Sequence record: NC_019399.1
DNA: 64,000 nt
Strand: one strand, 5' to 3'
DNA from: Escherichia phage vB_EcoM_ACG-C40
Positions within the stretch are counted from its first letter, which is position 1; every line of letters starts with the position of its first letter. Shown in pieces: positions 6,574-61,711 of this stretch. The notes under the pieces are model-generated. The model saw only the letters and a program-made list of their open reading frames with translations, had not been told where the DNA came from and did no database searches. The position numbers were made by a program, and so were the translations under genes.

Positions 6574-8133
6574 ATGACTATCAAAACTAAAGCTGAACTT
6601 TTGAACAAATGGAAGCCATTACTGGAAGGTGAAGGTTTACCGGAAATTGCTAATAGCAAACAAGCGATTATCGCTAAAATCTTTGAAAACCAGGAAAAAG
6701 ATTTCCAGACAGCTCCGGAATATAAAGACGAAAAAATTGCTCAGGCATTCGGTTCTTTCTTAACAGAAGCTGAAATCGGTGGTGACCACGGTTACAATGC
6801 TACCAACATCGCTGCAGGTCAGACTTCTGGAGCAGTAACTCAGATTGGCCCAGCTGTTATGGGTATGGTACGTCGTGCTATTCCTAACCTGATTGCTTTC
6901 GATATTTGTGGTGTTCAGCCAATGAACAGCCCGACTGGCCAGGTATTCGCACTGCGCGCAGTATATGGTAAAGACCCAATCGCTTCCGGTGCTAAAGAAG
7001 CATTCCACCCAATGTATGGTCCAGATGCAATGTTCTCTGGTCAGGGTGCTGCTAAGAAATTCCCAGCTCTGGCTGCTAGCACACAAACCACAGTAGGTGA
7101 TATCTATACTCACTTCTTCCAGGACACTGGTACTGTGTATCTGCAAGCTTCTGCTAAAGTAACAATTAGCGCAACTGACGCAGCTAAATTAGATGCTGAA
7201 ATTAAGAAACAAATGGAAGCTGGTGTACTGGTAGAAATCGCTGAAGGTATGGCTACTTCTATCGCTGAACTCCAGGAAGGTTTCAATGGTTCTACCGATA
7301 ACCCATGGAATGAAATGGGCTTCCGTATCGATAAGCAAGTTATCGAAGCTAAATCTCGTCAGCTGAAAGCTGCTTACTCTATCGAATTAGCACAGGACCT
7401 CCGCGCTGTTCACGGTATGGATGCTGATGCTGAACTGTCTGGCATTCTGGCTACAGAAATTATGTTGGAAATCAACCGCGAAGTTGTTGATTGGATTAAC
7501 TACTCAGCTCAGGTTGGTAAATCTGGTATGACCCTGACTCCGGGTTCTAAAGCTGGTGTATTTGACTTCCAGGACCCAATCGATATTCGTGGTGCTCGCT
7601 GGGCAGGTGAATCCTTTAAAGCTCTGTTGTTCCAGATTGACAAAGAAGCAGTTGAAATTGCTCGTCAGACTGGTCGCGGCGAAGGCAACTTCATTATCGC
7701 TTCCCGTAACGTAGTTAACGTTCTGGCTTCAGTTGATACCGGCATTTCTTATGCTGCACAGGGTCTGGCTACCGGCTTTAACACTGATACTACCAAGTCA
7801 GTATTTGCCGGTGTTCTGGGCGGTAAATACCGTGTATATATCGACCAGTATGCTAAACAGGATTATTTCACTGTAGGTTATAAAGGTCCGAACGAAATGG
7901 ATGCTGGTATTTACTATGCTCCATATGTAGCTCTGACTCCGCTGCGTGGTTCCGATCCGAAGAACTTCCAACCGGTAATGGGATTCAAAACTCGTTACGG
8001 TATCGGTATCAACCCATTTGCAGAATCCGCTGCTCAGGCTCCGGCTTCTCGCATCCAGAGCGGTATGCCTTCTATTCTGAATAGCCTTGGTAAAAACGCT
8101 TACTTCCGCCGTGTATATGTTAAAGGTATCTAA
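6574..8133 (+). CDS. 23: Major capsid protein gp23
   Basis: 519-aa ORF starting MTIKTKAELLNKWKPLLEGEGLPEIANSKQ, near-identical to recalled T4 gp23 (521 aa). Confidence 0.97.
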   Translation: MTIKTKAELLNKWKPLLEGEGLPEIANSKQAIIAKIFENQEKDFQTAPEYKDEKIAQAFGSFLTEAEIGGDHGYNATNIAAGQTSGAVTQIGPAVMGMVRRAIPNLIAFDICGVQPMNSPTGQVFALRAVYGKDPIASGAKEAFHPMYGPDAMFSGQGAAKKFPALAASTQTTVGDIYTHFFQDTGTVYLQASAKVTISATDAAKLDAEIKKQMEAGVLVEIAEGMATSIAELQEGFNGSTDNPWNEMGFRIDKQVIEAKSRQLKAAYSIELAQDLRAVHGMDADAELSGILATEIMLEINREVVDWINYSAQVGKSGMTLTPGSKAGVFDFQDPIDIRGARWAGESFKALLFQIDKEAVEIARQTGRGEGNFIIASRNVVNVLASVDTGISYAAQGLATGFNTDTTKSVFAGVLGGKYRVYIDQYAKQDYFTVGYKGPNEMDAGIYYAPYVALTPLRGSDPKNFQPVMGFKTRYGIGINPFAESAAQAPASRIQSGMPSILNSLGKNAYFRRVYVKGI

Positions 8134-8148
8134 TCTTTGACGATTTAA

Positions 8149-8177
8149 GGGACCTTCGGGTCCCTTTAGTTGTTTTT
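8149..8177 (+). terminator. Rho-independent terminator after gene 23
   Basis: GGGACC-TTCG-GGTCCC hairpin followed by TTTAGTTGTTTTT. Confidence 0.75.
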
Positions 8178-8181
8178 ATGG

Positions 8182-8189
8182 TATAAATA
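8182..8189 (+). promoter_or_regulatory. Late promoter TATAAATA for gene 24
   Basis: Exact TATAAATA about 28 nt upstream of ATG 8217. Confidence 0.55.
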
Positions 8190-8216
8190 AATCATATAAA
8201 CTGAAAGGAAAGCGCA

Positions 8217-9500: not shown

Positions 9501-9506
9501 AACAAA

Positions 9507-9530
9507 GGGACCGAAAGGTCCCTTTTTTAT
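9507..9530. terminator. Bidirectional rho-independent terminator between convergent gene 24 and rnlB
   Basis: GGGACC-GAAA-GGTCCC hairpin flanked by T-runs on both strands. Confidence 0.75.
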
Positions 9531-10535
9531 TTAACTTACCAATTCAATCCAAGCCGGACGAAGTACATCTTGTACCATTTTAACTAATTCCTTCTTAATC
9601 AAAGAAGGATTATCCGCTTGAGTTAGAGTAATACCTTCACGAGAAGTTTCTTCCAAAATATCTTGAACAGTTAGCCCCATCACCTTTCCAAAATCTTTTG
9701 GACCAATTTCACCAATTTTAGAAATAACGTTATTTACTCGGTTCAGTGTAACGTAGCAAGCTAAAATTCCCACCAATTTGTTATCAGCTTCTGATAGTTC
9801 AACTTTAGCTTTAATAGGCTTATCAGACTTTTTCTTTTCACTAAATTTGGAATTCTTGCATTTGATGGCTACACGATTTCCATTATGAAGTCAAGAAGGA
9901 TAACAAGGTTTCAATACATATCCTTCAGCGGTAAATACTTCGCCTTTGGCTTCAGCTTTCCAAACACATTTGTTAGCGTCAACTAATCCAGCATGGTCTA
10001 CTGTAAAATTATAATCTTGGACGACAGAATCTAAATCATTTGGCAATTTAATAAGCTCTTCAAATTTACCGCGACCTAAAAGTGGAGCCATTTTAAATTT
10101 AAATGTATTACAAAATGATTCCATCATATAATCATCGACATAAGTCACATCACCACTTTCTGTAGTGACAATAATGTCAAATACATAAAAATCTTTATCG
10201 CCATAATCGACATTCTTCTGAATGCCAGGTCCAGCGAATTCGCCAAAGACTTGATAAGATACAACCGCTGAGGTTTCCATAATATCTTGTACTGCTTTAA
10301 TAGAATCTTCGTAATTCTTTAGAATAATTTCATACCCAAAGAAATCTTCAGCAGGAAGAATCGGTCCAGTACGTTTAGCGCAAGTTACTTTATCACGCTC
10401 AATAATCAATGAGAAATTTGTGCCGTGAATCTTTTCACGAGCTACCCACTCCCCACCAGTCAATCCCAAGCTATAAAGTTTTTCAATAAATTTAGAGTTG
10501 TAATGATTTTCAAGACTGCTATACTTTTTAAACAT
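9531..10535 (-). pseudogene. rnlB: RNA ligase 2 (rnlB) interrupted by an in-frame TGA
   Basis: ORFs 9891..10535 (214 aa, KIHGTN adenylyltransferase motif) and 9531..9776 are in the same frame; a single TGA at 9891-9893 separates them; 214+1+38+81 = 334 codons, the recalled T4 Rnl2 length. Confidence 0.8.
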
Positions 10536-11126: not shown

Positions 11127-12258
11127 TTATGGATAGGTGTAGATGATACCAGTTTCTAAAGCAGTTTTATGAATGATGTATCCATTGCGTGATTCTTGAA
11201 CATCAACTTCTGGATAGTCTTTCATCATCTTCTGAAGAGTGTAACGATGCAGGTAGTATTTACTGTCTGGATCTTCAGTTTTCCAATCTTTACCTTCTTC
11301 GGTCATTTTTTGGATTTCATCCATAACCCACCAACCGCACCAGATATAAGCTGAAGTACGATGTGGAAGAGGATGAACATAAGGTAGTTCACCTTCTGGT
11401 TCTGGAGCAACTTTATCAGTTACCTGAACTTGACCTTCTGCTGTAATAGTTTTGCTATCATAATCAGTTGCAGTAACGACAGCAGTAACTTCAATAGTTT
11501 GACTTCCAACAGATGAGGTATCGACAGTATATACGTTAGTTGACCCTTCTACAGGAGAAGAATCTTTCTTCCATGAGTAAGTAATTTGTGCTTCTTCTGG
11601 AGCACCCGTAACATTAGCCGTAAATGTAGCCGAAGCATCTTGCTGAACATTAATAGAAGGAGGAGTCAATGTAACCTGTGGATTCATTGTCTTCTTATTA
11701 ACTGTCAATGATACTTCATTAGAAGTAACTTCCTTTTCATTGTAATTTTCAGCAGTTACTTGCGCTACACACTTGATTTTTTTTAACTCCACTTGTGTCA
11801 GGAGTGTAATTGAATGTAGCGTCAGTTGCTTTGTCTACAGGAGAACCGTCAACGTGCCATTGATACGTAGGGTTTGCACCTGATGGCTGTGAAGCTAAGG
11901 CAGCGGTAAATTCAATTGGAGTTCCAATCACTCCAGCATCAGGGCTACCAGGAGTTACAGCTAAAGTAGTTGTTTGTGTCTTATTTTGAACTGTGATAGT
12001 TGTACTAATTTCTGCTGTTTCAGGTTCAGATTCTGCAACTTGATTGGTTGCAACTACTTTAATAGTCTTTTGACCGGCAGGTCCTTTTAGTACATAACTA
12101 AAAGTTGCTGACGTTTCTTCCTGTGGAGCGTCGTCTACAGTCCAAGCATATGTAATAGATCCATCTCCAGTTTGACCACTGGGTGTAGCAGTAAACTGCT
12201 GAGTCTGATCTATAACTCCAGTAGGTGTTTTAGGAGTTATATCAACTGTAAAAGTCAT
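11127..12258 (-). pseudogene. hoc: Head outer capsid protein Hoc, frame broken by a +1 shift in a homopolymer
   Basis: N-terminal ORF 11749..12258 (169 aa, MTFTVDITPKTPTG...) and C-terminal ORF 11127..11792 (221 aa) overlap in different frames; the junction is a run of 8 T at 11777-11784; removing one base joins them. Confidence 0.75.
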
Positions 12259-13617: not shown

Positions 13618-15126
13618 ATGGATATTAAAGTACATTTTCACGACTTCAGTCATGTACGCATCGATTGTGAAGAGAGCACGTTCCACGAATTAAGAGATTT
13701 CTTTTCGTTTGAGGCCGATGGATATAGATTTAACCCTCGCTTCAGATATGGCAACTGGGATGGACGAATTCGTCTTTTAGATTATAATCGCCTTCTTCCA
13801 TTCGGTTTAGTCGGGCAAATTAAAAAGTTCTGCGATAACTTTGGCTATAAAGCCTGGATTGACCCACAGATTAACGAAAAAGAAGAATTATCAAGAAAAG
13901 ATTTTGATGAATGGCTTTCTAAATTAGAAATCTATTCAGGAAATAAAAGAATTGAACCGCATTGGTATCAAAAAGATGCAGTGTTCGAAGGATTAGTTAA
14001 TCGTCGTAGAATTCTTAATCTTCCAACATCCGCAGGTAAATCTTTAATTCAAGCTTTGCTTGCTCGGTATTATTTGGAAAATTATGAAGGCAAAATTCTT
14101 ATTATTGTTCCAACAACTGCTCTGACAACTCAGATGGCTGATGACTTTGTTGACTATCGTTTATTCAGTCATGCAATGATAAAGAAAATCGGTGGTGGAG
14201 CATCAAAAGATGATAAATATAAAAATGATGCACCGGTCGTTGTTGGTACATGGCAAACTGTAGTAAAACAACCGAAAGAATGGTTCTCACAGTTTGGAAT
14301 GATGATGAATGATGAATGTCATCTTGCTACAGGAAAAAGTATTTCATCTATCATATCAGGTTTAAATAACTGCATGTTCAAATTCGGTTTGTCTGGTTCA
14401 TTACGTGATGGCAAAGCCAATATCATGCAGTATGTTGGAATGTTCGGTGAAATATTTAAGCCAGTAACGACCTCTAAATTAATGGAAGATGGACAAGTAA
14501 CTGAGTTAAAAATTAATAGTATTTTTCTTCGCTATCCCGATGAGTTCACTACTAAATTAAAGGGAAAAACTTATCAAGAAGAAATAAAAATTATTACTGG
14601 GCTTAGTAAAAGAAATAAATGGATCGCTAAATTAGCTATTAAGCTTGCGCAAAAAGATGAAAACGCTTTTGTCATGTTTAAACATGTATCGCACGGTAAA
14701 GCTATTTTCGATTTAATTAAAAATGAATACGATAAAGTTTATTACGTATCAGGGGAAGTTGATACCGAAACCCGCAATATAATGAAAACCTTAGCTGAAA
14801 ATGGTAAAGGAATAATTATAGTAGCGAGTTATGGTGTATTTTCTACTGGTATTTCAGTTAAAAATCTGCATCATGTTGTTTTAGCGCACGGTGTTAAATC
14901 TAAAATTATTGTATTGCAAACAATAGGTCGCGTATTACGTAAGCATGGTTCTAAGACAATAGCAACAGTCTGGGACCTCATAGATGACGCGGGCGTGGTT
15001 TCTAAATCAAAAACATCTTCTAAAAAATACTCGCATTTAAACTATCTTTTAAAACATGGACTTGATCGTATTCAGCGTTATGCTGATGAAAAGTTTAATT
15101 ATGTGATGAAAGAGGTTAAACTTTGA
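13618..15126 (+). CDS. uvsW: UvsW DNA/RNA helicase
   Basis: 502-aa ORF starting MDIKVHFHDFSHVRIDCEESTFHEL with helicase motifs; matches T4 UvsW. Confidence 0.95.
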   Translation: MDIKVHFHDFSHVRIDCEESTFHELRDFFSFEADGYRFNPRFRYGNWDGRIRLLDYNRLLPFGLVGQIKKFCDNFGYKAWIDPQINEKEELSRKDFDEWLSKLEIYSGNKRIEPHWYQKDAVFEGLVNRRRILNLPTSAGKSLIQALLARYYLENYEGKILIIVPTTALTTQMADDFVDYRLFSHAMIKKIGGGASKDDKYKNDAPVVVGTWQTVVKQPKEWFSQFGMMMNDECHLATGKSISSIISGLNNCMFKFGLSGSLRDGKANIMQYVGMFGEIFKPVTTSKLMEDGQVTELKINSIFLRYPDEFTTKLKGKTYQEEIKIITGLSKRNKWIAKLAIKLAQKDENAFVMFKHVSHGKAIFDLIKNEYDKVYYVSGEVDTETRNIMKTLAENGKGIIIVASYGVFSTGISVKNLHHVVLAHGVKSKIIVLQTIGRVLRKHGSKTIATVWDLIDDAGVVSKSKTSSKKYSHLNYLLKHGLDRIQRYADEKFNYVMKEVKL

Positions 15127-15815
15127 ATTATAAATTAATATATGATAATTTAATTAATAGAGCCCAGAATCGGGCTCGCCTTAATGGATACACTGAAACT
15201 CATCATATAATTCCTAGATGTATGGGTGGTACAGATGATAGGTGTAATTTAGTAGAACTAACAGCTGAAGAACATTTTATAGCCCATAAACTTTTAGCTA
15301 AAATTCATCCAAATCATTACGGTATAATTAAAGCCGTTATATGTATGGGAATGAACTCAAAGACTCATGAAAGACACGTTAATAAATCTTACGCATGGGA
15401 ACGTCGTAAAATGGCAGAACTTCAATCCGGTGAAGGTAATCCATTTTACGGAAAACACCATACGGAAGAACATAAACAATATATGTCAAAACTCATGAAA
15501 AGTCGTCCAATTACATGGGGAAATAAAATTAGTAAAACTAAAAGAATGAACCCAACAAAATGGACCGAAGAAGCTAAAAGATTACATTCAATCAATCAAT
15601 CGGGTAAAAATAATGGCATGTATGGAAGGAAACATTCCGCTAAATCTATTCAGAAAATTAAAGATAACATGCCAGATAATTCAGGAGCTAATAACCCAGC
15701 TGCTAAACCTATAGAAGTAAATGGTGTTAAATATAAATGTATGAAAGACGCTTCTAAAGCTACTGGATTATCAATGTACAAACTAAGAATACTCAGAAAA
15801 ACAGTTAATTTATAA
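15123..15815 (+). CDS. HNH homing endonuclease (free-standing), TTG start
   Basis: 230-aa ORF with HNH motif THHIIPRCMGG...N...EEHFIAH, repeated GxxN(P)xYGKxHS motifs and a C-terminal helix-turn-helix-like segment; no in-frame ATG before the HNH motif; TTG at 15123 overlaps the uvsW TGA and lies 7 nt after AGAGG. Confidence 0.8.
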   Translation: MNYKLIYDNLINRAQNRARLNGYTETHHIIPRCMGGTDDRCNLVELTAEEHFIAHKLLAKIHPNHYGIIKAVICMGMNSKTHERHVNKSYAWERRKMAELQSGEGNPFYGKHHTEEHKQYMSKLMKSRPITWGNKISKTKRMNPTKWTEEAKRLHSINQSGKNNGMYGRKHSAKSIQKIKDNMPDNSGANNPAAKPIEVNGVKYKCMKDASKATGLSMYKLRILRKTVNL

Positions 15816-15830
15816 GGGCTTCGGCCCTTT
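15816..15830 (+). terminator. Short hairpin after the HNH gene (possible terminator or processing site)
   Basis: GGGC-TTCG-GCCC followed by TTT, immediately before the uvsW.1 Shine-Dalgarno. Confidence 0.4.
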
Positions 15831-15840
15831 GGAGAAAAAG

Positions 15841-16071
15841 ATGTTACTAGAATTTAAACAATTTCTTTATGAAGCTTCTATTGATGAATTTATGGGTAAA
15901 ATTGCCTCTTGTCAAACATTAGAAGGTTTAGAAGAACTTGAAGCTTATTATAAGAAAAGAGTTAAAGAAACTGAATTAAAAGATACTGATGACATCTCAG
16001 TCAGAGATGCTTTGGCAGGAAAAAGAGCTGAATTAGAAGATTCAGACGATGAAGTAGAAGAAAGCTTTTAA
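15841..16071 (+). CDS. uvsW.1: UvsW.1 small acidic protein
   Basis: ORF-track start 15829 is TTG; ATG at 15841 gives 76 aa (MLLEFKQFLYEAS...), the recalled T4 UvsW.1 length; GGAG upstream. Confidence 0.7.
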   Translation: MLLEFKQFLYEASIDEFMGKIASCQTLEGLEELEAYYKKRVKETELKDTDDISVRDALAGKRAELEDSDDEVEESF

Positions 16072-24721: not shown

Positions 24722-25078
24722 TACATTTTGAACTTTTTAGTACGCGTAATAGGCATGCGTCGATTTTATACTGTTTCATTGTTTGAAGAGCAGTATCAAA
24801 AACAGCATTAATGACACCAATTGGATTTCCACCCAAGTTTTTAAGCTTAACTAATGATAGTTTCTCATTAACACCTATCATTACGATATGCATCATTTTG
24901 TCGCCTGGTTTAACGTTTTATCTGTATCACCGCCAGAGGTGTATGTACAAAATCTAAATCCAGGAAGCACGCTTTCTTCGCCGGCTTGAATAGCAAAAAT
25001 TTGTGGTATTTTATGCTTAGGATTTAAGTTAACAACCGGCGCCGAAGCGCCGTCAAATAATTATGTAATAAGTTCCAT
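24690..25078 (-). pseudogene. Degenerate duplicate of the alt 5' coding region
   Basis: Begins ATGGAACTTATTACATAA (MELIT*), continues with alt-like sequence (...NLNPKHKIPQIF...GFRFCTYTSGGDT...), 1-nt deletion, then a 68-aa ORF 24690..24896 (MMHIV...QYKIDACLLRVLKS) paralogous to Alt residues about 64-130. Confidence 0.7.
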
Positions 25079-35774: not shown

Positions 35775-36995
<1,221 letters not shown>

Positions 36996-36999
<4 letters not shown>

Positions 37000-40042: not shown

Positions 40043-40046
40043 CTCC

Positions 40047-41225
40047 TTAAAAGTATTTTTTAAAACTCATCATAACTTTATCATCAACATCATTATCAAT
40101 CTGTGCAACAAGATAAGATGACAGTTCTACTTCTTGTGGCGCTGATTGAACATTATCAGAATTAAGATATTCACGAATCCAAGGATATGGATGTTTAACC
40201 GGAGCATCGGTAATTGGGCATGGAAGACCACACTGTTTCATACGAGATACAGTTAAGTAATCAATAAAGCTCCACATGCTATTTGTATTTAATCCAGGAA
40301 CATCGCCATCTTTAAATAAATGAACTGCCCAATCTTTTTCTTGGCGGTTAACTTCCATGAAAATATCAACTGCTTCTTGTTCACACTCTTGAGCAATTTT
40401 AACCCATTGATCGCCATCAGTACCAGATTGAAGTTGACGAATAATATATTGGGTGCCTTTAAGGTGAAGCTGTTCATCGCGTGCAATGAACTTCATAATC
40501 TTGGCATTACCTTCCATGATTTCCATGTTCTTATGGAAGTTAAAGGTACATGCAAAAGATACATAAAAACGAATAGCTTCCAATGCGTTGATTACATGCA
40601 AACAGAGGTAAAGAGATTTCATTAGCTCACGCTTCCAATATGTCTCATGCTCAATAGCATCTTCAATAACGTCTTCGTCTGCGTTAATTTCTTTTTGGTA
40701 TTCGATATCAGCTTTAGCGTTTTCCCAATAACGAGTTTTAATCAGAACATCATCATAATAACGTCCAATGGATTCAGCACGTTTCATAATAGCTTCATCT
40801 AATACAATTTCATCAAATACCTTCGATGGATCAGTATAAAGATTTCGCATGATATGAGTATATGAACGACTGTGAATAGTTTCACTAAAAGTCCATGTAG
40901 CAGCCCATGTATCAAGACTTGGGTCTGAAATTAATGACATAAGTACAGCAGACGGCGCACGACCCTGAATGCTATCTAAAAGTGATTGATACTTCAGGTT
41001 GTTAGTAAAAATATTTTGCTGGTACTGAGGAAGCTTATTAAACTGTGCAGCATCCATCATCAAGTTTACTTCTTCAGGACGCCAGAAAAATGATAATTGC
41101 TTTTCGGTTAAATCTTCAAAAACTTTATGACGTTGAATATCATAACGCGCAATACCAAGACCTGAACCAAAAAACATAGGTTCTTTTAAAACATCAACTG
41201 GATTTGTATTAAAAACTGTGCTCAT
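40047..41225 (-). CDS. nrdB: Ribonucleotide reductase small subunit NrdB (uninterrupted)
   Basis: Continuous 392-aa ORF starting MSTVFNTNPVDVLKEPMFFGSG; no intron. Confidence 0.95.
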   Translation of the reverse strand: MSTVFNTNPVDVLKEPMFFGSGLGIARYDIQRHKVFEDLTEKQLSFFWRPEEVNLMMDAAQFNKLPQYQQNIFTNNLKYQSLLDSIQGRAPSAVLMSLISDPSLDTWAATWTFSETIHSRSYTHIMRNLYTDPSKVFDEIVLDEAIMKRAESIGRYYDDVLIKTRYWENAKADIEYQKEINADEDVIEDAIEHETYWKRELMKSLYLCLHVINALEAIRFYVSFACTFNFHKNMEIMEGNAKIMKFIARDEQLHLKGTQYIIRQLQSGTDGDQWVKIAQECEQEAVDIFMEVNRQEKDWAVHLFKDGDVPGLNTNSMWSFIDYLTVSRMKQCGLPCPITDAPVKHPYPWIREYLNSDNVQSAPQEVELSSYLVAQIDNDVDDKVMMSFKKYF

Positions 41226-41276
41226 AAATTTTCCGCTTAGTTAATAGTTGGTGACTCGTCCGTGAGTCAAATTATA

Positions 41277-43541
41277 TCATAATTTACAGGATGAACAATC
41301 TTCAGCTTTTGGAGTTTCTATTTCATAATCATCAGTACCAGAACCATCGCGGGTATTATGATAATAGAAATTTTTTCCGCCAAAATACCAAAAATACAAA
41401 AGGTCATCAATCATTATTGACATTGGAACCTTTCCTTTTGGAAAAATCTGCGGGTCATAATATGTATTCGCTGAAGCTGATTGACATACCCATTTCAGCA
41501 TAATAGCTACCTGCGTAAGATAAGGTTTATTACCTTTCTTAGCTAATTTCCATGTATAATCATATAGGTCTATGTTATGCTCAATATTGGGCACGACTTG
41601 ATTAAAGGAGCCCTCTTTTGATTCTTTAACAGAGACTGGTCCACGTGGAGGCTCGATACCGTTTGTACTGTTAGAAACTTGGGAAGATGACTCACATGGC
41701 ATAAGTGCTGATAATGTGCTATTACGGATGCCAAAGAGCTTAAGGTCTTCCCGCAGCGCCGACCAGTCACAAACGTATTTTGGAGCTGCGATTTGGTCAA
41801 TCTTTTTATTGTACCAGTCGATAGGTAATTCGCCTCGAGACCAACGAGTGTCTGAATAATATTCGCAAGGTCCTTTTTCTTTGGCGAGCTTAATGGATGC
41901 TTTAATGAGTCCATACTGTAATCTCTCAAATAGTTCATGTGTTAAATCATTAGCATCTTCATAAGAAGCAAAGTTACTTGCCAGCCAAGCTGCATAGTTG
42001 GTAACACCTACACCGAGGTTACGACGCTTTTTAGCTTTTTCTGCTTCAGGAACTGGATATCCTTGGTAATCCAACAGATTATCAAGAGCACGAACTTGAA
42101 CTTCTGCCAATTCATTAATTTTATCTTGGTCTTGCCAGTCAAAATTATCTAGTACGAATGCAGAGAGAGTACACAATCCAATTTCAGCATCAGGACTATT
42201 CACATCATTTGTTGGAATAGCAATTTCACAGCACAAGTTACTCTGACGAATAGGCGCCTTTTCACGAATAAACGGAGTATAGTTATTCGTATTATCAATG
42301 AACTGCACATAAATCCTTGCGGTTCCTGAACGTTCAGTCATGAGCAATTCAAATAGTTCACGGGCTTTAATACGCTTTTTACGAATATTAGGGTCTTTTT
42401 CTGCTGCTTCGTATAATTCACGGAAACGGTTTTGGTCTTTAAAATAAGAATAATAAAGTTCGCCACCCATTTCATGCGGACTGAACAAAGTAATGTAATC
42501 ATTCTTTCCGAATCGTTCCATCATTAGGTCATTCAGTTGAACGCCATAATCCATATGACGGATACGGTTTTCTTCTACGCCTTTGTTATTTTTCAAAACG
42601 AGAAGATTTTCAACTTCCAAATGCCAAATAGGATAATAAGCAGTAGCAGCGCCGCCACGAATTCCACCCTGTGAGCATGATTTAACTGCAGTCTGAAAAT
42701 GTTTCCAAAAAGGAATAACACCAGTATGGCGTACTTCACCCATGCCAATCTTAGAACCTTCAGCACGAATCATACCAACGTTAATACCAATTCCAGCGCG
42801 TTTAGAGATATATTCAACAATTGAAGCGGAAGCCTTGTTGATAGACTTTAATGAATCACCTGCCTCAATAACAACACATGAACTAAACTGTCGAGTCGGA
42901 GTACGACAACCAGCCATAATAGGAGTTGGTAATGAAATCTGTCGAGTAGATACTGCTTCATAAAAACGGATAACGTGTTTTAATCTATCAACAGGTTCAT
43001 CTTGATGCAATGCCATTCCAATAGTCATAAATGCAAACTGTGGAGTTTCATAAATTTGACCAGTGGTTTTATCTTTAACTAGATATTTTTCTTTTAATTG
43101 CATCGCCCCGGAATAAGTAAATTCCATATCCCGTTCGTGCTTAATTTTTGATTCTAAAAATGTAATTTCTTCTGCTGAATATTTTGACAACAGTTCAGGG
43201 TCGTATTTACCTTCATTTACACAGTAAGAAATATGGTCAATAAATGAACGCGGTTCATACTGCCCATAAACATGCTTACGAAGAGCGAACATTAGACAAC
43301 GTGCAGCTACATATTGATAATCAGGCTCTTCAACCGAAATAGAATTCGCAGCGGCCTTAATGACAATAGTCTGAATATCATCAGTTGTCATTCCATCACG
43401 GAGATAAGATTTAATATTTTCATATAATTCATAAGGATCTACTGATGTTCCCTCAGCTGCCCAAGATAAAACTTTAATAATTTTTTGTGGGTCAAAGCTC
43501 TGAGAAACACCACTACTTTTGATAACATTAATTAATTGCAT
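41277..43541 (-). CDS. nrdA: Ribonucleotide reductase large subunit NrdA
   Basis: 754-aa ORF with ATP-cone N-terminus; only 51 bp separate it from nrdB. Confidence 0.95.
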   Translation of the reverse strand: MQLINVIKSSGVSQSFDPQKIIKVLSWAAEGTSVDPYELYENIKSYLRDGMTTDDIQTIVIKAAANSISVEEPDYQYVAARCLMFALRKHVYGQYEPRSFIDHISYCVNEGKYDPELLSKYSAEEITFLESKIKHERDMEFTYSGAMQLKEKYLVKDKTTGQIYETPQFAFMTIGMALHQDEPVDRLKHVIRFYEAVSTRQISLPTPIMAGCRTPTRQFSSCVVIEAGDSLKSINKASASIVEYISKRAGIGINVGMIRAEGSKIGMGEVRHTGVIPFWKHFQTAVKSCSQGGIRGGAATAYYPIWHLEVENLLVLKNNKGVEENRIRHMDYGVQLNDLMMERFGKNDYITLFSPHEMGGELYYSYFKDQNRFRELYEAAEKDPNIRKKRIKARELFELLMTERSGTARIYVQFIDNTNNYTPFIREKAPIRQSNLCCEIAIPTNDVNSPDAEIGLCTLSAFVLDNFDWQDQDKINELAEVQVRALDNLLDYQGYPVPEAEKAKKRRNLGVGVTNYAAWLASNFASYEDANDLTHELFERLQYGLIKASIKLAKEKGPCEYYSDTRWSRGELPIDWYNKKIDQIAAPKYVCDWSALREDLKLFGIRNSTLSALMPCESSSQVSNSTNGIEPPRGPVSVKESKEGSFNQVVPNIEHNIDLYDYTWKLAKKGNKPYLTQVAIMLKWVCQSASANTYYDPQIFPKGKVPMSIMIDDLLYFWYFGGKNFYYHNTRDGSGTDDYEIETPKAEDCSSCKL

Positions 43542-44410: not shown

Positions 44411-45426
44411 CATTATGTTCAGATAAGGTCGTTAATCTTACCCCGGAATTATATCCAGCTGCATGTCACCATGCAGATCAGACTATATCTCCAACTTGTT
44501 AAAGCAAGTTGTCTATCGTTTCGAGTCACTTGACCCTACTCCCCAAAGGGATAGTCGTTAGGCATTTATGTAGAACCAATTCCATTTATCAGATTTTACA
44601 CGATAAGTAACTAATCCAGACGAAATTTTAAAATGTCTAGCTGCATCTGCTGCACAATCAAAAATAACCCCATCACATGAAATCTTTTTAATATTACTAG
44701 GCTTTTTACCTTTCATCTTTTCTGATATTTTAGATTTAGTTATGTCTGAATGCTTATGATTAAAGAATGAATTATTTTCACCTGAACGATTTCTGCATTT
44801 ACTACAAGTATAAGCAGAAGTTTGTATGCGAACACCGCACTTACAAAACTTATGGGTTTCTGGATTCCAACGCCCGTTTTTACTTCCGGGTTTACTGTAA
44901 AGAGCTTTCCGACCATCAGGTCCAAGTTTAAGCATCTTAGCTTTAACAGTTTCAGAACGTTTCTTAATAATTTCTTCTTTTAATGGATGCGTAGAACATG
45001 TATCACCAAACGTTGCGTCAGCAATATTGTATCCATTAATTTTAGAATTAAGCTCTTTAATCCAAAAATTTTCTCGTTCAATAATCAAATCTTTCTCATA
45101 TGGAATTTCTTCCAAAATAGAACATTCAAACACATTACCATGTTTGTTAAAAGACCTCTGAAGCTTTATAGAAGAATGGCATCCTTTTTCTAAATCTTTA
45201 AAATGCCTCTTCCATCTCTTTTCAAAATCTTTAGCACTTCCTACATATACTTTATTGTTTAAAGTATTTTTAATCTGATAAATTCCGCTTTTCATAAATA
45301 CCTCTTTAAATATAGAAGTATTTATTAAAGGGCAGTCCTACAATTTAGCACGGGATTGTCTACTAGAGAGGTTCCCCGTTTAGATAGATTACAAGTATAA
45401 GTCACCTTATACTCAGGCCTCAATTA
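44411..45426 (-). mobile_element. Group I self-splicing intron in td, carrying I-TevI
   Basis: 1016 nt between td exons; 5' end reads TAATTGAGGCCTGAGTATAAGGTGACTTATACTTG..., as recalled for the T4 td intron; exons join in frame to 286 aa. Confidence 0.9.
44558..45295 (-). CDS. I-TevI: Intron-encoded GIY-YIG homing endonuclease I-TevI
   Basis: 245-aa ORF starting MKSGIYQIKNTLNNKVYVGSAKDFEKRWKRHF. Confidence 0.95.
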   Translation of the reverse strand: MKSGIYQIKNTLNNKVYVGSAKDFEKRWKRHFKDLEKGCHSSIKLQRSFNKHGNVFECSILEEIPYEKDLIIERENFWIKELNSKINGYNIADATFGDTCSTHPLKEEIIKKRSETVKAKMLKLGPDGRKALYSKPGSKNGRWNPETHKFCKCGVRIQTSAYTCSKCRNRSGENNSFFNHKHSDITKSKISEKMKGKKPSNIKKISCDGVIFDCAADAARHFKISSGLVTYRVKSDKWNWFYINA

Positions 45427-57122: not shown

Positions 57123-57773
57123 ATGGCTGATTTAAAAGTAGGTTCAACTGTGGGTGGATCTGTCATTTGGCATCAAGGAAATTTTCCATTGAATTCAGCC
57201 GGTGACGATGTACTCTACAAATCATTTAAAATATATTCAGAATATAATAAACCGCAGGCAGCTGATAACGATTTCGTTTCTAAAGCTAATGGTGGTACTT
57301 ACGCCGGTCCAATTACTATTAATTACGGGGTAAATAGTTATCTTCAATTAAGTAATAATGAAACCCCTATCCGAATTCGTTCTGGTGGCGGCACTGGTAA
57401 TACTCTTGTAGTTGGTGGCTCTTCTGGCGGTATTAGTTTTAGACCAGCAGGTAGTGAAATCACTACTGGACAAATTACTATTACGCCAGAAGGTTTGACA
57501 ACATTTACCAAAGCTGTAACGGCTCCATCTGTAACTGTTACATCTACTCCTTCCGCAGCATCTGATGTTACTCGTAAAGATTATGTTGATGGAGCAATAA
57601 ATACTGTTACAGCAAATGCAAACTCTAGGGTATTACGCTCTGGAGACACTATGACAGGAAATTTAACTGCGCCAAACCTTTTTTCACAGAATCCTGCATC
57701 TCAACCTTCACACGTTCCACGATTTGACCAAATCGTAATTAAGGATTCTGTTCAAGATTTCGGCTATTATTAA
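57123..57773 (+). CDS. 36: Long tail fibre distal connector gp36
   Basis: 216-aa ORF, T4 position. Confidence 0.9.
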
Positions 57774-57781
57774 GAGGACTT

Positions 57782-60700
57782 ATGGCTACTTTAAAACAAA
57801 TACAATTTAAAAGAAGCAAAACTGCAGGTCAACGTCCTGCTGCTTCAGTATTAGCCGAAGGTGAATTGGCTATAAACTTAAAAGATAAAACAATTTTCAC
57901 AAAAGATGACTCAGGTAGTGTTATAGAATTAGGTTTAAAATATGGAGGAACTATAAATGGGTCTTTAGAGGTTACAGAAAATATAACTGGAACTTTAATT
58001 GGAAATTCTAGCACAGCTACTAAATTGCAAACACCTAGGAAAATTAATGGTATATCTTTTGATGGGTCAAAGGACATTACCTTAACTCCATCTGACATAA
58101 ATGTCAATAGCACAACATTTATAAAAAATAATGGCGAATTACCTACTGATGCTAATTTAGATACGTATGGGCCCATTGAAGAATATCTTGGTGTTTGGTC
58201 GAAATCTACTTCAACAAATGCGCAACCAGCAAATAAATTCCCAGAAGAAAATGCCGTAGGTGTACTAGAAGTATTTGTGGCCGGCCAATTTGCTGGCACT
58301 CAGCGTTATACTGTAAGATCTGGTAACGTCTATATTCGTTCCTTATCTGCTAAATGGAATGGCGTCGATGGTCCATGGGGTGTGTGGCGTAATGTTCAAG
58401 CGTCAACTCGTCCACTTTCACAAACGATTGACCTTGATAGCTTGGGAGAATTAGAACATTGTGGCTTATGGAGAAACAGTTCAAGCGCAATCGCATCATT
58501 TGATCGCCATTATCCAGAAGAAGGATCAGCCGCACAAGGATTTTTAGAAATATTTGAAGGTGGTTTATACACAAGAACGCAGCGTTATACTACCCGCATG
58601 GGTATGGTTTATACTCGTTGTCTCGCTGCTGCATGGGATGCTAGTGCACCTAAGTGGGAGGAATGGAAGCAGGTTGGTCATGGCACACCAGCGACTTTCT
58701 ATGATGGAGATCTGAATGATTTTAAAACTCCTGGGTTATATAACATTTTAGGCACTGATGCCGTTATTAACTGTCCTACTGGTGAAGGTTTACCAGCCGT
58801 TATTGTTGGTTTGCTGGAAGTTAAACAGCGTGCTTCTGGTGGTGCTATTTTCCAAAAATTTACTACTGCCGGAACGGGTGCAACTACTCGCGATCGTATT
58901 TTTGAGCGTGCATATACTGGTGGTGCGTGGGGTGCATGGAACGAAGTATATACATCTTATTCTCTTCCAATTACTTTGGGTATGGGTGGTATTAAAGCTC
59001 AATTAGCGGAGTTAGATTGGCAAACCTTTGATTTTGTTCCTGGTAGTATGTTTAGCGTTCCTTTGAACAAAATAAAGAACATGCCAGCAAATATGGATTG
59101 GGGGACGATTGACGGAAACCTGGTTATGTTTTCCGTTGGTCCTAGTGAACACACTAGCACAGGGCGTACTGTTCAGGTTTGGCGCGGTACTGTATCCCAG
59201 ACAAACTACCGTTATTTTGTCGTTCGTGTGTTCGGTAATTCTGGAAATAGAACTTGCACAGTCCGCCGTGTTGTTCTTGAAGATGGTCGCCACACATGGA
59301 CAGATCAACAAGATTTTAATGGTGCTGTTAACTTCGGTGCTCCTACCAATTTTAACTCTACTGTTAACCTTAATAACACTACCACATTTAAAACAGAAGT
59401 TAAATTCCGCTCATCTAATGCATTCCGTATGTATAGCGGAAAATTTGGTACAATTTTCCGTAATGATGGAGAGAGTCTTTATATTCTTTCCACCGACGAA
59501 AATGATCAAGATGGAAACTTTAATACAAATAGACCTTTCCGTTATGAATTAAGAACTGGTGATGTTACTTTGGGTGGTACTAGTGGTGCTAACGTTTTAA
59601 AATTAAAACGCGATTCTCTCACCGCATTTTTTGGTGGTGATATTAATATAAAAGGCTTGATGACTTTTGATGCCGGACGTTTAGGATCACGAGATTATTT
59701 TAAATTTAACCATTGGGGTGATAGTAATAATGCGCGCGATAACATTATTCAGTTAGAAGACAGCAAAGGCGTTCATTTTTCCACTGAACGTACTTTAGCG
59801 ACTGGTGCAATTAAAACTCGTTTCTTTGGCGAAACATTCACTGATGGTACATTATACCTAAATCAGATGAATAATAGCTCTGAACGATTCCATATCAATA
59901 ATTGGGGAAATTCAGAAGTTGGTCGCGCGGCAGTGATGGAAATCGGTGATTCCAAAGGTTATCACTTCTATACTGAACGCAGGACAGATAACAGTTTGGC
60001 GTTTGATGTTGCTGGCGCTTTTACTGTGCATGGACCTAACGGAATAACCATCAAAAACTCAGCGGGTGCACGCCATATCTGGTTTAAAGATGATAGCGAT
60101 ACAGAAAAGGCTGTTATTTGGGCGACCGATGATGGCATGTTACATATACGAAATAATAACGAGGGTTCATTTAGTCATCACTTCCAGGGCGCAATGATTA
60201 GACTGGAAGGGCGTGTTCCTTATGGTGCAGCAAAGGGGCTTCTCCGTGGTGAAGTTGATGGTGGTGCATATGTTGCATGGAGAGACCGCCCTGCTGGTTT
60301 GTTGGTTGACTGCCAGAAAAGTATTGACAGTGCTCATGCTGTTTGGAAAGCGGTTGATTGGGGGCGTCAATATATCGCTGCGATGGACGTTCATTGTCCG
60401 GGTGATGGTAATAATACCGCAGCCGCTGTTCTTCATGTTCAGGCTGCTGATTATCAATTCCACGCAAGCGGAGAATTTCATGCCACTGGTAACGGAAACT
60501 TTAACGATGTGTATATTCGTTCTGATCGTCGTCTTAAAGACAATATAGAAGATTATACCGGAAATGCGTTAAGTTTGATTGGTAAGCTGAAAGTGAAAAC
60601 TTACGATAAAGTTAAATCTCTTAAGGACCGTGAAATTATCGGTCATGAGATTGGCATTATCGCACAGGATTTACAAGAAATATTACCGGAAGCTGTGAAA

Positions 60701-60874
60701 TCTTCAAAAGTTGGCAATCTTGATAATCCAGACGATGTTCTGACAATTTCTAACTCGGCAGTGAATGCTCTTTTAATTAAGGCTATTCAGGAAATGAGTG
60801 AAGAAATTAAAGAATTGAAAACTCCTTTCTTTACTAAAATTGCTCGCAAAATTAGTAAATATTTTAAATTCTAA
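57782..60874 (+). CDS. 37: Long tail fibre distal subunit gp37 with C-terminal intramolecular chaperone domain
   Basis: 1030-aa ORF; C-terminal ...[26 protein letters not shown]...[15 protein letters not shown]... resembles the endosialidase-type autoproteolytic chaperone (S-D-x-R-x-K-x-N-I). Confidence 0.9.
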
Positions 60875-60910
60875 CAACAAGGGGGAAATGCCCCCTTTGG
60901 AGTATAAATT

Positions 60911-61711
60911 ATGGCAGTAGTTGGTGTTCCTGGTTGGATTGGAAGTTCAGCCGCAAATGAAACAGGACAGCGCTGGATGAGTCAAGCGGCTGGTCAATTA
61001 AGATTGGGTGTTCCTTGCTGGATGAGTCAATTTGCAGGTCGCTCACGAGAAATTATTCACACGCTTGGAGCAGACCATAACTTCAATGGTCAATGGTTCC
61101 GAGATAGATGTTTTGAGGCAGGTAGTGCACCTATAGTATTTAATATTACAGGTGATTTAGTATCATATTCTAAAGATGTACCGCTTTTCTTTATGTATGG
61201 TGACACTCCTAACGAATACGTTGTCCTTAATATTCATGGTGGTGTCCATATGTGGGGTCGAGGTGGTAATGGTGGATACACTCACTCAGGTGGAGATGGT
61301 AACGGTACACAAGGCGGTCATGTTATTCAAAATGATATCGGTGGACGGCTTCGTATTTGGAACTACGGTGTTATAGCTGCTGGCGGTGGTGGCGGTGGTG
61401 GTATTGCATATCGTCCACACTCAGGGGCAAACTGGCAAGATATCGGTGGCGGTGGCGGTCGACCTTTCGGTGGTGCAGGTGGTGGTGGTTATTCCGGTGG
61501 CGCTGCTTCTTATGAAGGTCCGGGTGGTGGTTATGACTATGGTAACGCACACTCCGGCGCAGGTGGTAATGCTGGTGCTGCTGGTCAGAATGCATGGTCT
61601 GACGGCGGTAAAGTTCTTAAAGTTGGTGTTGGTGGTGCGTCTGGTCATGCAGTGTTTGGGTCTTCTCCAACTTGGGGTGCTGTTGGAACAATTTACGGAC
61701 CAAGAGTATAA
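60911..61711 (+). CDS. 38: T2-type gp38 tail fibre adhesin with glycine-rich motifs
   Basis: 266-aa ORF with several poly-Gly stretches separated by short variable segments ([40 protein letters not shown]...); unlike the 183-aa T4 gp38 chaperone. Confidence 0.85.

What the first reader, a model, noticed from the sequence alone, without database searches (positions are those of the whole stretch)
9531..10535. rnlB (RNA ligase 2) carries a single in-frame UGA at codon 215, in a UGA-C context
The two rnlB pieces are in the same frame and separated only by TGA at 9891-9893; the total is 334 codons, the recalled T4 Rnl2 length. From memory T4 has Trp (TGG) here, so this is a nonsense change that would remove the C-terminal domain. 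The stop is followed by C, a context known to be leaky for UGA in E. coli, so low-level readthrough by tRNA-Trp is possible. Alternatively it is a sequencing error or a genuine loss of a non-essential gene, while pseT and rnlA remain intact.
Basis: partly seen in the sequence, partly recalled or inferred. Interest (0 to 1): 0.55.

Follow-up and report, generated by a model that had tools for sequence, protein, structure and literature searches.

The report
Opal stop mutation in phage rnlB
A T4-like phage (vB_EcoM_ACG-C40) carries a single G-to-A change that turns a conserved tryptophan codon of its RNA ligase 2 gene into a UGA stop; this is most likely an ordinary, recent knock-out (or strong knock-down) of a dispensable gene, not a new recoding mechanism.

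Summary
rnlB lies on the minus strand at 10535..9531 and is one 334-codon frame broken only by TGA at 9891-9893 (codon 215), with C as the next base. T4, T2 and every close relative checked have TGG (Trp) there. Apart from this codon, the protein is identical to an intact Rnl2 of a related phage. The window is Escherichia phage vB_EcoM_ACG-C40, genome 96,001-160,000. Its 2012 annotation already lists the two RnlB pieces. The allele is private: I found it in 0 of 449 phage records, in no IMG/VR contig and in no metagenome contig. The 214-aa product lacks motif V (K225/K227) and the whole C-terminal domain, so it should be inactive. UGA followed by C is a documented weak terminator, and Trp-tRNA misreading would restore the wild-type residue. 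A little normal enzyme, about 0.1-1%, is therefore plausible but untested. Nothing indicates programmed recoding. A sequencing error is unlikely, because this is a length-preserving substitution in 454 data at 195-930x coverage. rnlB is broken independently in T2, HY03, DalCa and several metagenomic contigs, which fits a dispensable gene. Interest is low.

The parts
9891..10535 (-). rnlB 5' piece: 214 sense codons plus the premature TGA. It holds most of the nucleotidyltransferase domain, including motif I Lys35 (codon at 10431-10433). It is annotated in GenBank as AFH20137.1 / orf173.
   Evidence: Pfam PF09414 covers residues 29-211 but only profile positions 2-158 of 171; exact protein match to ACG-C40; Table S1 coordinates 105891..106535
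9891..9893 (-). Premature opal codon TGA (codon 215). Relatives have TGG (Trp215), so this is a G-to-A transition on the coding strand (C-to-T at window 9891 on the + strand).
   Evidence: no identical 61-mer in 449 phage records
9890..9890 (-). The +4 base C after the stop (UGA-C), a weak termination context in E. coli.
   Evidence: literature PMC5289835
9855..9863 (-). Motif V codons K225-C226-K227 (aaa tgc aag). They lie downstream of the stop and are therefore missing from the 214-aa product.
   Evidence: for the sequence; K225/K227 contact the AMP phosphate (PMC3149579)
9531..9890 (-). rnlB 3' piece in the same frame: 119 sense codons plus TAA. It holds motif V and the T4_Rnl2_C domain. 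It is translated only after readthrough. GenBank annotates an 80-aa ORF within it (orf172, AFH20136.1).
   Evidence: (PF18043, E 7.9e-25)
9504..9525 (.). Bidirectional intrinsic terminator hairpin between rnlB and gene 24. rnlB is the last gene of its transcription unit, so the premature stop has no downstream gene on which to exert polarity.
   Evidence: the same element is annotated in DalCa

Best explanation
A genuine and evolutionarily recent TGG-to-TGA (Trp215-to-opal) transition is present in the sequenced stock of phage vB_EcoM_ACG-C40. The main product is a 214-aa N-terminal fragment of RNA ligase 2. It keeps the AMP-accepting Lys35 but lacks motif V (K225/K227) and the whole C-terminal domain, so it is expected to be inactive in nick sealing (inferred). 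Because UGA-C is a weak terminator and the near-cognate reader of UGA is Trp-tRNA(Trp), rare readthrough would put back the original residue. That would give a small amount, roughly 0.1-1% (inferred, not measured), of fully wild-type Rnl2. The phage tolerates this because rnlB is dispensable under laboratory growth, as the independent rnlB lesions in other T-even phages show. The stop is not a programmed recoding signal.
For: Shown:
- The stop and its context are in the sequence.
- The ancestral state is TGG in T4 and all close relatives checked. No identical 61-mer occurs in 449 matching phage records, of which 79 differ by exactly one base.
- The rest of the protein is identical to an intact relative. 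All 5 other nucleotide differences from L003 lie at third codon positions and are silent, so there is no further decay and the lesion is recent.
- The product loses the end of PF09414 and all of PF18043.
- The intact form matches PDB 2HVQ (T4 Rnl2) at E 5.8e-225.
- Motif V K225/K227 contact the AMP phosphate (PMC3149579). [quoted passage not shown]
- The genome was sequenced by 454 at 195-930x coverage (PMC3347319). A length-preserving GG-to-GA change is not the homopolymer-type error of that chemistry.
- Independent rnlB lesions exist elsewhere: DalCa G283* and HY03 -1 frameshift; T2 with two 2-bp deletions; a Logan contig with E246* and ENA/Logan contigs with -1 in an A-run; IMG/VR L035 and L039 frameshifts.
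- UGA+4C is inefficient at termination and tRNA-Trp misreads UGA (PMC5289835). Readthrough frequency is 1e-3 to 1e-2 (PMC10570021).
Against: - No raw reads are available, so the base call cannot be verified.
- The allele is private to this one assembly.
- A second gene 1.2 kb away (hoc) is also broken in this assembly, at the only coding homopolymer of 8 or more bases. This shows the record may contain at least one 454 artefact.
- The inactivity of the 214-aa fragment and the readthrough level are inferred from T4 Rnl2 biochemistry and E. coli reporter data. They were not measured for this context or this host.
- From my own knowledge: natural E. coli isolates carry a more efficient RF2 than K-12, which would lower readthrough.
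Confidence: 0.75

Rival explanations
1. Sequencing or assembly error: the phage really has TGG and an intact rnlB.
For: The allele occurs in no other record or contig. The same 454 assembly has a likely homopolymer artefact in nearby hoc, A7 to A8. The rest of the gene shows no decay.
Against: The change is a substitution that preserves length. Under 454 flow chemistry it would need an undercall of GG plus a spurious A at the same site, and it would have to carry the consensus at 195-930x coverage. Among about 85 T4 gene homologues compared across the window, only three carry a lesion: rnlB, hoc and alt.-1, the last a remnant of an old duplication that is itself stop-interrupted in T4. The assembly is therefore not generally error-ridden.
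Confidence: 0.13
2. Programmed or selected readthrough: the UGA is kept as a device that sets Rnl2 to a low level or makes two products, a 214-aa fragment and the full-length enzyme.
For: The UGA-C context is the weakest E. coli terminator. Readthrough by tRNA-Trp would restore the native residue. The downstream 119 codons are undamaged.
Against: The stop is not conserved: all relatives have TGG. There is no Rfam match to a SECIS or other recoding element. The 71 nt from the stop onward fold no better than 13 of 200 shuffles (z -1.67). The window encodes no tRNA, and the closest relative's 10 phage tRNAs include no Trp or suppressor tRNA. An intact downstream sequence is equally expected from a very recent mutation.
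Confidence: 0.04
3. Frameshift-mediated or split-gene rescue. Either a prfB-like +1 shift at UCU UGA C restores the protein, or reinitiation yields a C-terminal fragment that complements the N-terminal piece in trans.
For: The sequence resembles the prfB shift site CUU UGA C. An 81-aa ORF starting at TTG 9776 covers the C-terminal domain and was gene-called in other broken alleles.
Against: The +1 frame after the stop (GAC UUC AUA AUG GAA AUC GUG UAG) ends after 7 codons, and there is no Shine-Dalgarno-like element upstream. Motif V (codons 225-227) lies between the stop and the TTG at codon 254, so it would be in neither fragment.
Confidence: 0.02

Closest known systems
T4 RNA ligase 2 (Rnl2, gene rnlB / 24.1; PDB 2HVQ, 2HVR, 2HVS, 1S68)
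   Same: It sits in the same locus, between gene 24 and 24.2/24.3/hoc. It has 334 codons and is 98.5% identical to T4 Rnl2 in protein sequence. The domain set is the same, PF09414 plus PF18043. The intact relative matches 2HVQ at E 5.8e-225.
   Different: Codon 215 is TGA instead of TGG, so the primary product stops at residue 214.
Rnl2(1-249), the engineered 'T4 Rnl2 truncated' enzyme
   Same: Both are N-terminal truncations that lack the C-terminal domain.
   Different: Rnl2(1-249) keeps motif V (K225/K227) and can still self-adenylylate and join pre-adenylylated donors. The 214-aa natural fragment ends before motif V, so it is not expected to keep these activities.
Classical leaky opal (UGA) mutants of T-even phages and E. 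coli, read by normal tRNA-Trp
   Same: A TGG-to-TGA transition, a UGA in a weak +4 context, and readthrough that would reinsert Trp.
   Different: This one arose spontaneously in an environmental isolate, in a gene of unknown role during infection. Its leakiness has not been measured.
Other disrupted rnlB alleles: T2 (MH751506), HY03 (KR269718), DalCa (MH992510), and contigs from ERR15324756, ERZ28615363 and ERR2241743
   Same: Each is an independent inactivating lesion in the same dispensable gene of a Tequatrovirus or close relative.
   Different: Each lesion is at a different position and of a different type: G283*, E246*, 1-bp and 2-bp deletions. None shares the W215* change.

Membership tests
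Rnl2-family RNA ligase (T4 Rnl2) | N-terminal nucleotidyltransferase domain with the motif I lysine (K35 in KIHGTN) | tested here: met
   PF09414 E 2.5e-22 on the 214-aa piece. The sequence EKIHGTNF is present and aligns identically with PDB 2HVQ in the intact relative.
Rnl2-family RNA ligase (T4 Rnl2) | Motif V (K225-x-K227) inside the translated product | tested here: not met
   The codons at 9855-9863 lie downstream of the TGA. The Pfam match of the 214-aa product stops at profile position 158 of 171, against 170 of 171 in the intact protein.
Rnl2-family RNA ligase (T4 Rnl2) | Rnl2-specific C-terminal domain (PF18043) joined to the catalytic domain in one polypeptide | tested here: not met
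   PF18043 is encoded (E 7.9e-25) but only downstream of the stop. It is joined to the catalytic domain only if the UGA is read through.
Rnl2-family RNA ligase (T4 Rnl2) | Nick-sealing activity on duplex RNA | not testable with these tools
   This needs purified protein. Loss of activity is inferred from published structure-function work.
Programmed stop-codon readthrough / selenocysteine recoding | The stop codon is conserved at the site among relatives | tested here: not met
   All close relatives checked have TGG. No identical 61-mer occurs in 449 records. IMG/VR has 0 hits, and the 7 metagenome hits are all chance matches.
Programmed stop-codon readthrough / selenocysteine recoding | A stimulatory RNA element (SECIS or other structure) just downstream | tested here: not met
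   No relevant Rfam match even at E up to 10. The fold has z -1.67, and 13 of 200 shuffles fold at least as well.
Programmed stop-codon readthrough / selenocysteine recoding | Full-length product made at a defined, substantial level | not testable with these tools
   This requires a Western blot, mass spectrometry or a reporter assay.
prfB-type +1 frameshift site | Slippery CUU UGA C with an upstream Shine-Dalgarno-like element and a productive +1 frame | tested here: not met
   The site is UCU UGA C. There is no SD-like sequence upstream, and the +1 frame stops after 7 codons.

The most novel reading that the evidence does not exclude
Loss or attenuation of Rnl2 may be positively selected rather than merely tolerated. 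rnlB is knocked out independently in ACG-C40, T2, HY03, DalCa and several metagenomic T4-like contigs, so the enzyme might be a liability on some hosts, for example as a trigger or target of a host defence. On that reading, the ACG-C40 opal allele in a leaky UGA-C context would be a hypomorph that keeps a trace of wild-type enzyme. I did not compare the lesion rate of rnlB with that of other non-essential T4 genes, so relaxed selection alone remains the simpler reading.
Probability: 0.08. Interest if true: 0.5.

Novelty: already known. Interest (0 to 1): 0.12.

Why it matters
It matters little on its own. It is a point mutation in a known, dispensable phage gene, and the public annotation of this genome already shows it as two 'RNA ligase 2 RnlB' ORFs (GenBank AFH20137.1 and AFH20136.1; Table S1 of PMC3347319). 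It has two practical uses. First, annotators should mark rnlB of ACG-C40 as an interrupted gene rather than as two genes. Second, ACG-C40 is a natural Rnl2-deficient or hypomorphic T4-like phage. [quoted passage not shown]

Tried and rejected
- I searched for the same allele elsewhere. A 61-mer BLAST against 50,697 phage records gave no identical match. Exact 32-mer and 19-mer scans of IMG/VR gave 0 hits.
- A 19-mer scan of metagenome contigs gave 7 hits. All were chance matches of 20-24 nt in contigs of 41-56% GC with no rnlB homology.
- I tried to fetch the source record (NC_019399, JN986846) to inspect its tRNA cluster. It is not in the collection, so I used the closest relative instead.
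- The look-up of encoding contigs has no entry for the exact 214-aa protein.
- SECIS or other recoding RNA: nothing in Rfam and no significant local structure.
- A prfB-like +1 frameshift and reinitiation at TTG 9776 are both rejected from the sequence, as explained under the rival explanations.
- A paper search for 'Rnl2' with 'Lys227' found nothing. The motif V evidence comes from PMC3149579 instead.
- I did not predict a structure, because solved structures of a near-identical protein already exist.

Full report
**Observation.** On the minus strand, an ORF runs from ATG at 10535 to TGA at 9891-9893 (214 aa). The same frame then continues for 119 sense codons to TAA at 9531-9533. The stop is codon 215 and the next base is C, giving the context CCU UCU UGA CUU CAU. 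Read through, the frame gives 334 residues. The coordinates, the frame and the count in the finding are all correct.

**Identity of the gene and of the window.**
- The translated frame is T4 RNA ligase 2. It is 98.5% identical to T4 RnlB over residues 1-334, with one internal stop.
- The intact homologue from phage 232Ecol030PP, which differs from the window's protein only at residue 215, matches PDB 2HVQ/2HVR/2HVS (T4 Rnl2) at E 5.8e-225 and 1S68 (Rnl2 1-249) at E 3e-166.
- Pfam places RNA_ligase (PF09414) at residues 29-226 and T4_Rnl2_C (PF18043) at 246-322 of the intact protein.
- Gene order around it is that of T4: 23, 24, rnlB, 24.2, 24.3, hoc, inh, segE, uvsW.
- The exact 214-aa protein is GenBank AFH20137.1 / YP_006986729.1, 'RNA ligase 2 [Escherichia phage vB_EcoM_ACG-C40]'.
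- Supplementary Table S1 of the phage's description lists orf173 'RNA ligase 2 RnlB' at 105891..106535 and orf172 at 105531..105773. The window is therefore ACG-C40 genome 96,001-160,000.
- The split has been in the public annotation since 2012, but no passage on the ligase turned up in that paper's main text ('ligase' 0 occurrences).

**Ancestral state and age of the change.**
- T4, T4 'wild', T2, DalCa, HY03, 232Ecol030PP and the closest IMG/VR genomes all have TGG at this codon. More distant T4-like phages have Trp or Phe.
- A 61-base query centred on the stop found 449 phage records. None was identical, and 79 differed by exactly one base.
- Exact-pattern scans of IMG/VR found nothing. The 7 metagenome hits to a 19-mer are chance matches in unrelated DNA. 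The allele is private to this genome.
- Against 232Ecol030PP, the gene differs at 6 nucleotides. One makes the stop, and the other five are silent third-position changes. The part of the gene after the stop has not started to decay, so the mutation is recent on the scale of divergence among these phages.

**Consequence for the protein.**
- The 214-aa product keeps motif I, with Lys35 in KIHGTN. It ends before motif V (K225-C-K227, window 9855-9863) and before the C-terminal domain.
- Its Pfam match stops at profile position 158 of 171, against 170 of 171 in the intact protein.
- K225 and K227 contact the AMP phosphate and are key residues for enzyme adenylylation (PMC3149579).
This fragment is shorter than the useful Rnl2(1-249) truncation and should be catalytically dead. 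That conclusion is inferred, not measured.
- rnlB is followed directly by a bidirectional terminator hairpin at 9504-9525. No gene downstream could suffer polarity.

**Could the stop be read through?**
Inefficient termination with +4C, especially at UGA, is 'well-documented' in bacteria, and UGA is misread by tRNA-Trp in E. coli (PMC5289835).
- UGA readthrough reflects competition between Trp-tRNA(Trp) and RF2, and stop-codon readthrough runs at 1e-3 to 1e-2 (PMC10570021).
- The ancestral codon was Trp, so each readthrough event would produce wild-type Rnl2. A trace of normal enzyme is therefore plausible.
- Nothing suggests more than passive leakiness. The stop is not conserved. No SECIS or other Rfam element is present. 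The downstream 71 nt fold no better than 13 of 200 shuffles. The window has no tRNA gene. The ten phage tRNAs of the closest relative are Arg, Asn, Tyr, Met, Thr, Ser, Pro, Gly, Leu and Gln, with no Trp or suppressor tRNA. ACG-C40's own tRNA cluster lies outside the window and I could not read it.
- The resemblance to the prfB shift site (CUU UGA C) is superficial. Here the site is UCU UGA C, there is no upstream Shine-Dalgarno-like element, and the +1 frame ends after seven codons.

**Real mutation or sequencing error?**
- The genome was determined by 454 pyrosequencing at 195-930x coverage (PMC3347319). The characteristic 454 error is a miscounted homopolymer.
- TGG to TGA preserves length. 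It would need an undercalled GG and a spurious A at the same place in most reads, so a consensus error of this kind is unlikely.
- The assembly is not perfect, however. hoc, 1.2 kb away, is frameshifted by an eighth A in an A-run (window 11777-11784) where relatives have seven. This is the only homopolymer of 8 or more bases inside a coding region of the window, which is exactly where a 454 artefact is expected. The original authors instead suggested translational frameshifting for Hoc.
- Of about 85 T4 gene homologues compared across the window, only rnlB, hoc and alt.-1 show lesions, and alt.-1 is a remnant of an old duplication that carries a stop in T4 as well.
- I put the probability of a sequencing error at rnlB at about 0.13.

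**Is loss of rnlB plausible?** Independent lesions occur in several other genomes:
- DalCa: G283* (GGA to TGA), annotated as 'RNA ligase 3' plus 'RNA ligase 2'.
- HY03: a 1-bp deletion near nucleotide 338.
- Classical T2: two 2-bp deletions.
- A Logan assembly of ERR15324756: E246*.
- ENA ERZ28615363 and Logan ERR2241743: a 1-bp deletion in an A-run.
- Two IMG/VR genomes, L035 and L039: frameshifts.
- Short RnlB fragments are also recorded for SV76 and ECO4.

Most genomes, roughly 95% of those sampled, keep the gene intact. The biological role of Rnl2 in infection is still unknown (PMC3884662). The tRNA-repair pair pseT and rnlA is intact here. This is the pattern of a conserved but dispensable accessory gene that is occasionally lost.

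**Verdict.** The feature is real and correctly described, and its most likely meaning is mundane. It is a recent opal mutation in a non-essential gene, giving an inactive fragment and perhaps a trace of wild-type enzyme through ordinary UGA leakiness. Both the gene and the split are already in the public record. The only mildly interesting thread is the recurrent independent inactivation of rnlB across T-even phages. It could reflect selection against the enzyme on some hosts, but I did not compare it with a baseline for other accessory genes.

Noticed in passing
window 11127-12258 (-), A-run at 11777-11784: hoc is split into a 169-aa and a 221-aa ORF by one extra A in an A-run: 8 here against 7 in relatives, whose gene is 1131 nt against 1132 here. 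This is the only coding homopolymer of 8 or more bases in the window, and the genome was sequenced by 454. A homopolymer artefact is therefore at least as likely as the translational frameshifting that the original authors proposed.
   Followed up: partly
window 13618-16071 (+): A 230-aa homing-endonuclease-like ORF (15123-15815; two NUMOD3 motifs; 50% identical to T4 MobE over 105 aa) sits exactly between uvsW (502 aa, 13618-15126) and the UvsW.1-domain ORF (15829-16071). In the current T4 RefSeq record these two are one 587-aa gene. Here the helicase and its C-terminal module are separated by a mobile element.
   Followed up: partly
window 36679-36999 (-): There is an extra 106-aa ORF between pseT and pseT.1 that has no counterpart at this position in T4. 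Its function is unknown and I did not search for homologues.
   Followed up: no
window 24896-25078 (-): The alt.-1 homologue carries an in-frame stop. In T4 the alt.-1/alt.-2 pair is already described as a decayed duplication of the start of alt.
   Followed up: no
window 57123-61700 (+): The distal tail-fibre region differs from T4. gp36 is only 67% identical, gp37 matches only over its first 64 residues, and there is no T4-type gp38. This suggests a T2/T6-type adhesin module, in keeping with mosaic host-range cassettes.
   Followed up: no
window 8131-8216, 40044-41279 and 44561-45295: The content of mobile endonuclease genes differs from T4. segD, mobE and nrdB.1 are absent, while I-TevI (in the td intron) and segG are present at 100% and segE at 98.5% protein identity to T4.
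   Followed up: no
loci L045 (T2, MH751506.1), L042-L044, L001, L002, L035, L039: rnlB is independently inactivated in several other T-even genomes and metagenomic contigs, including classical T2, which has two 2-bp deletions. I did not test whether this exceeds the rate for other accessory genes.
   Followed up: partly
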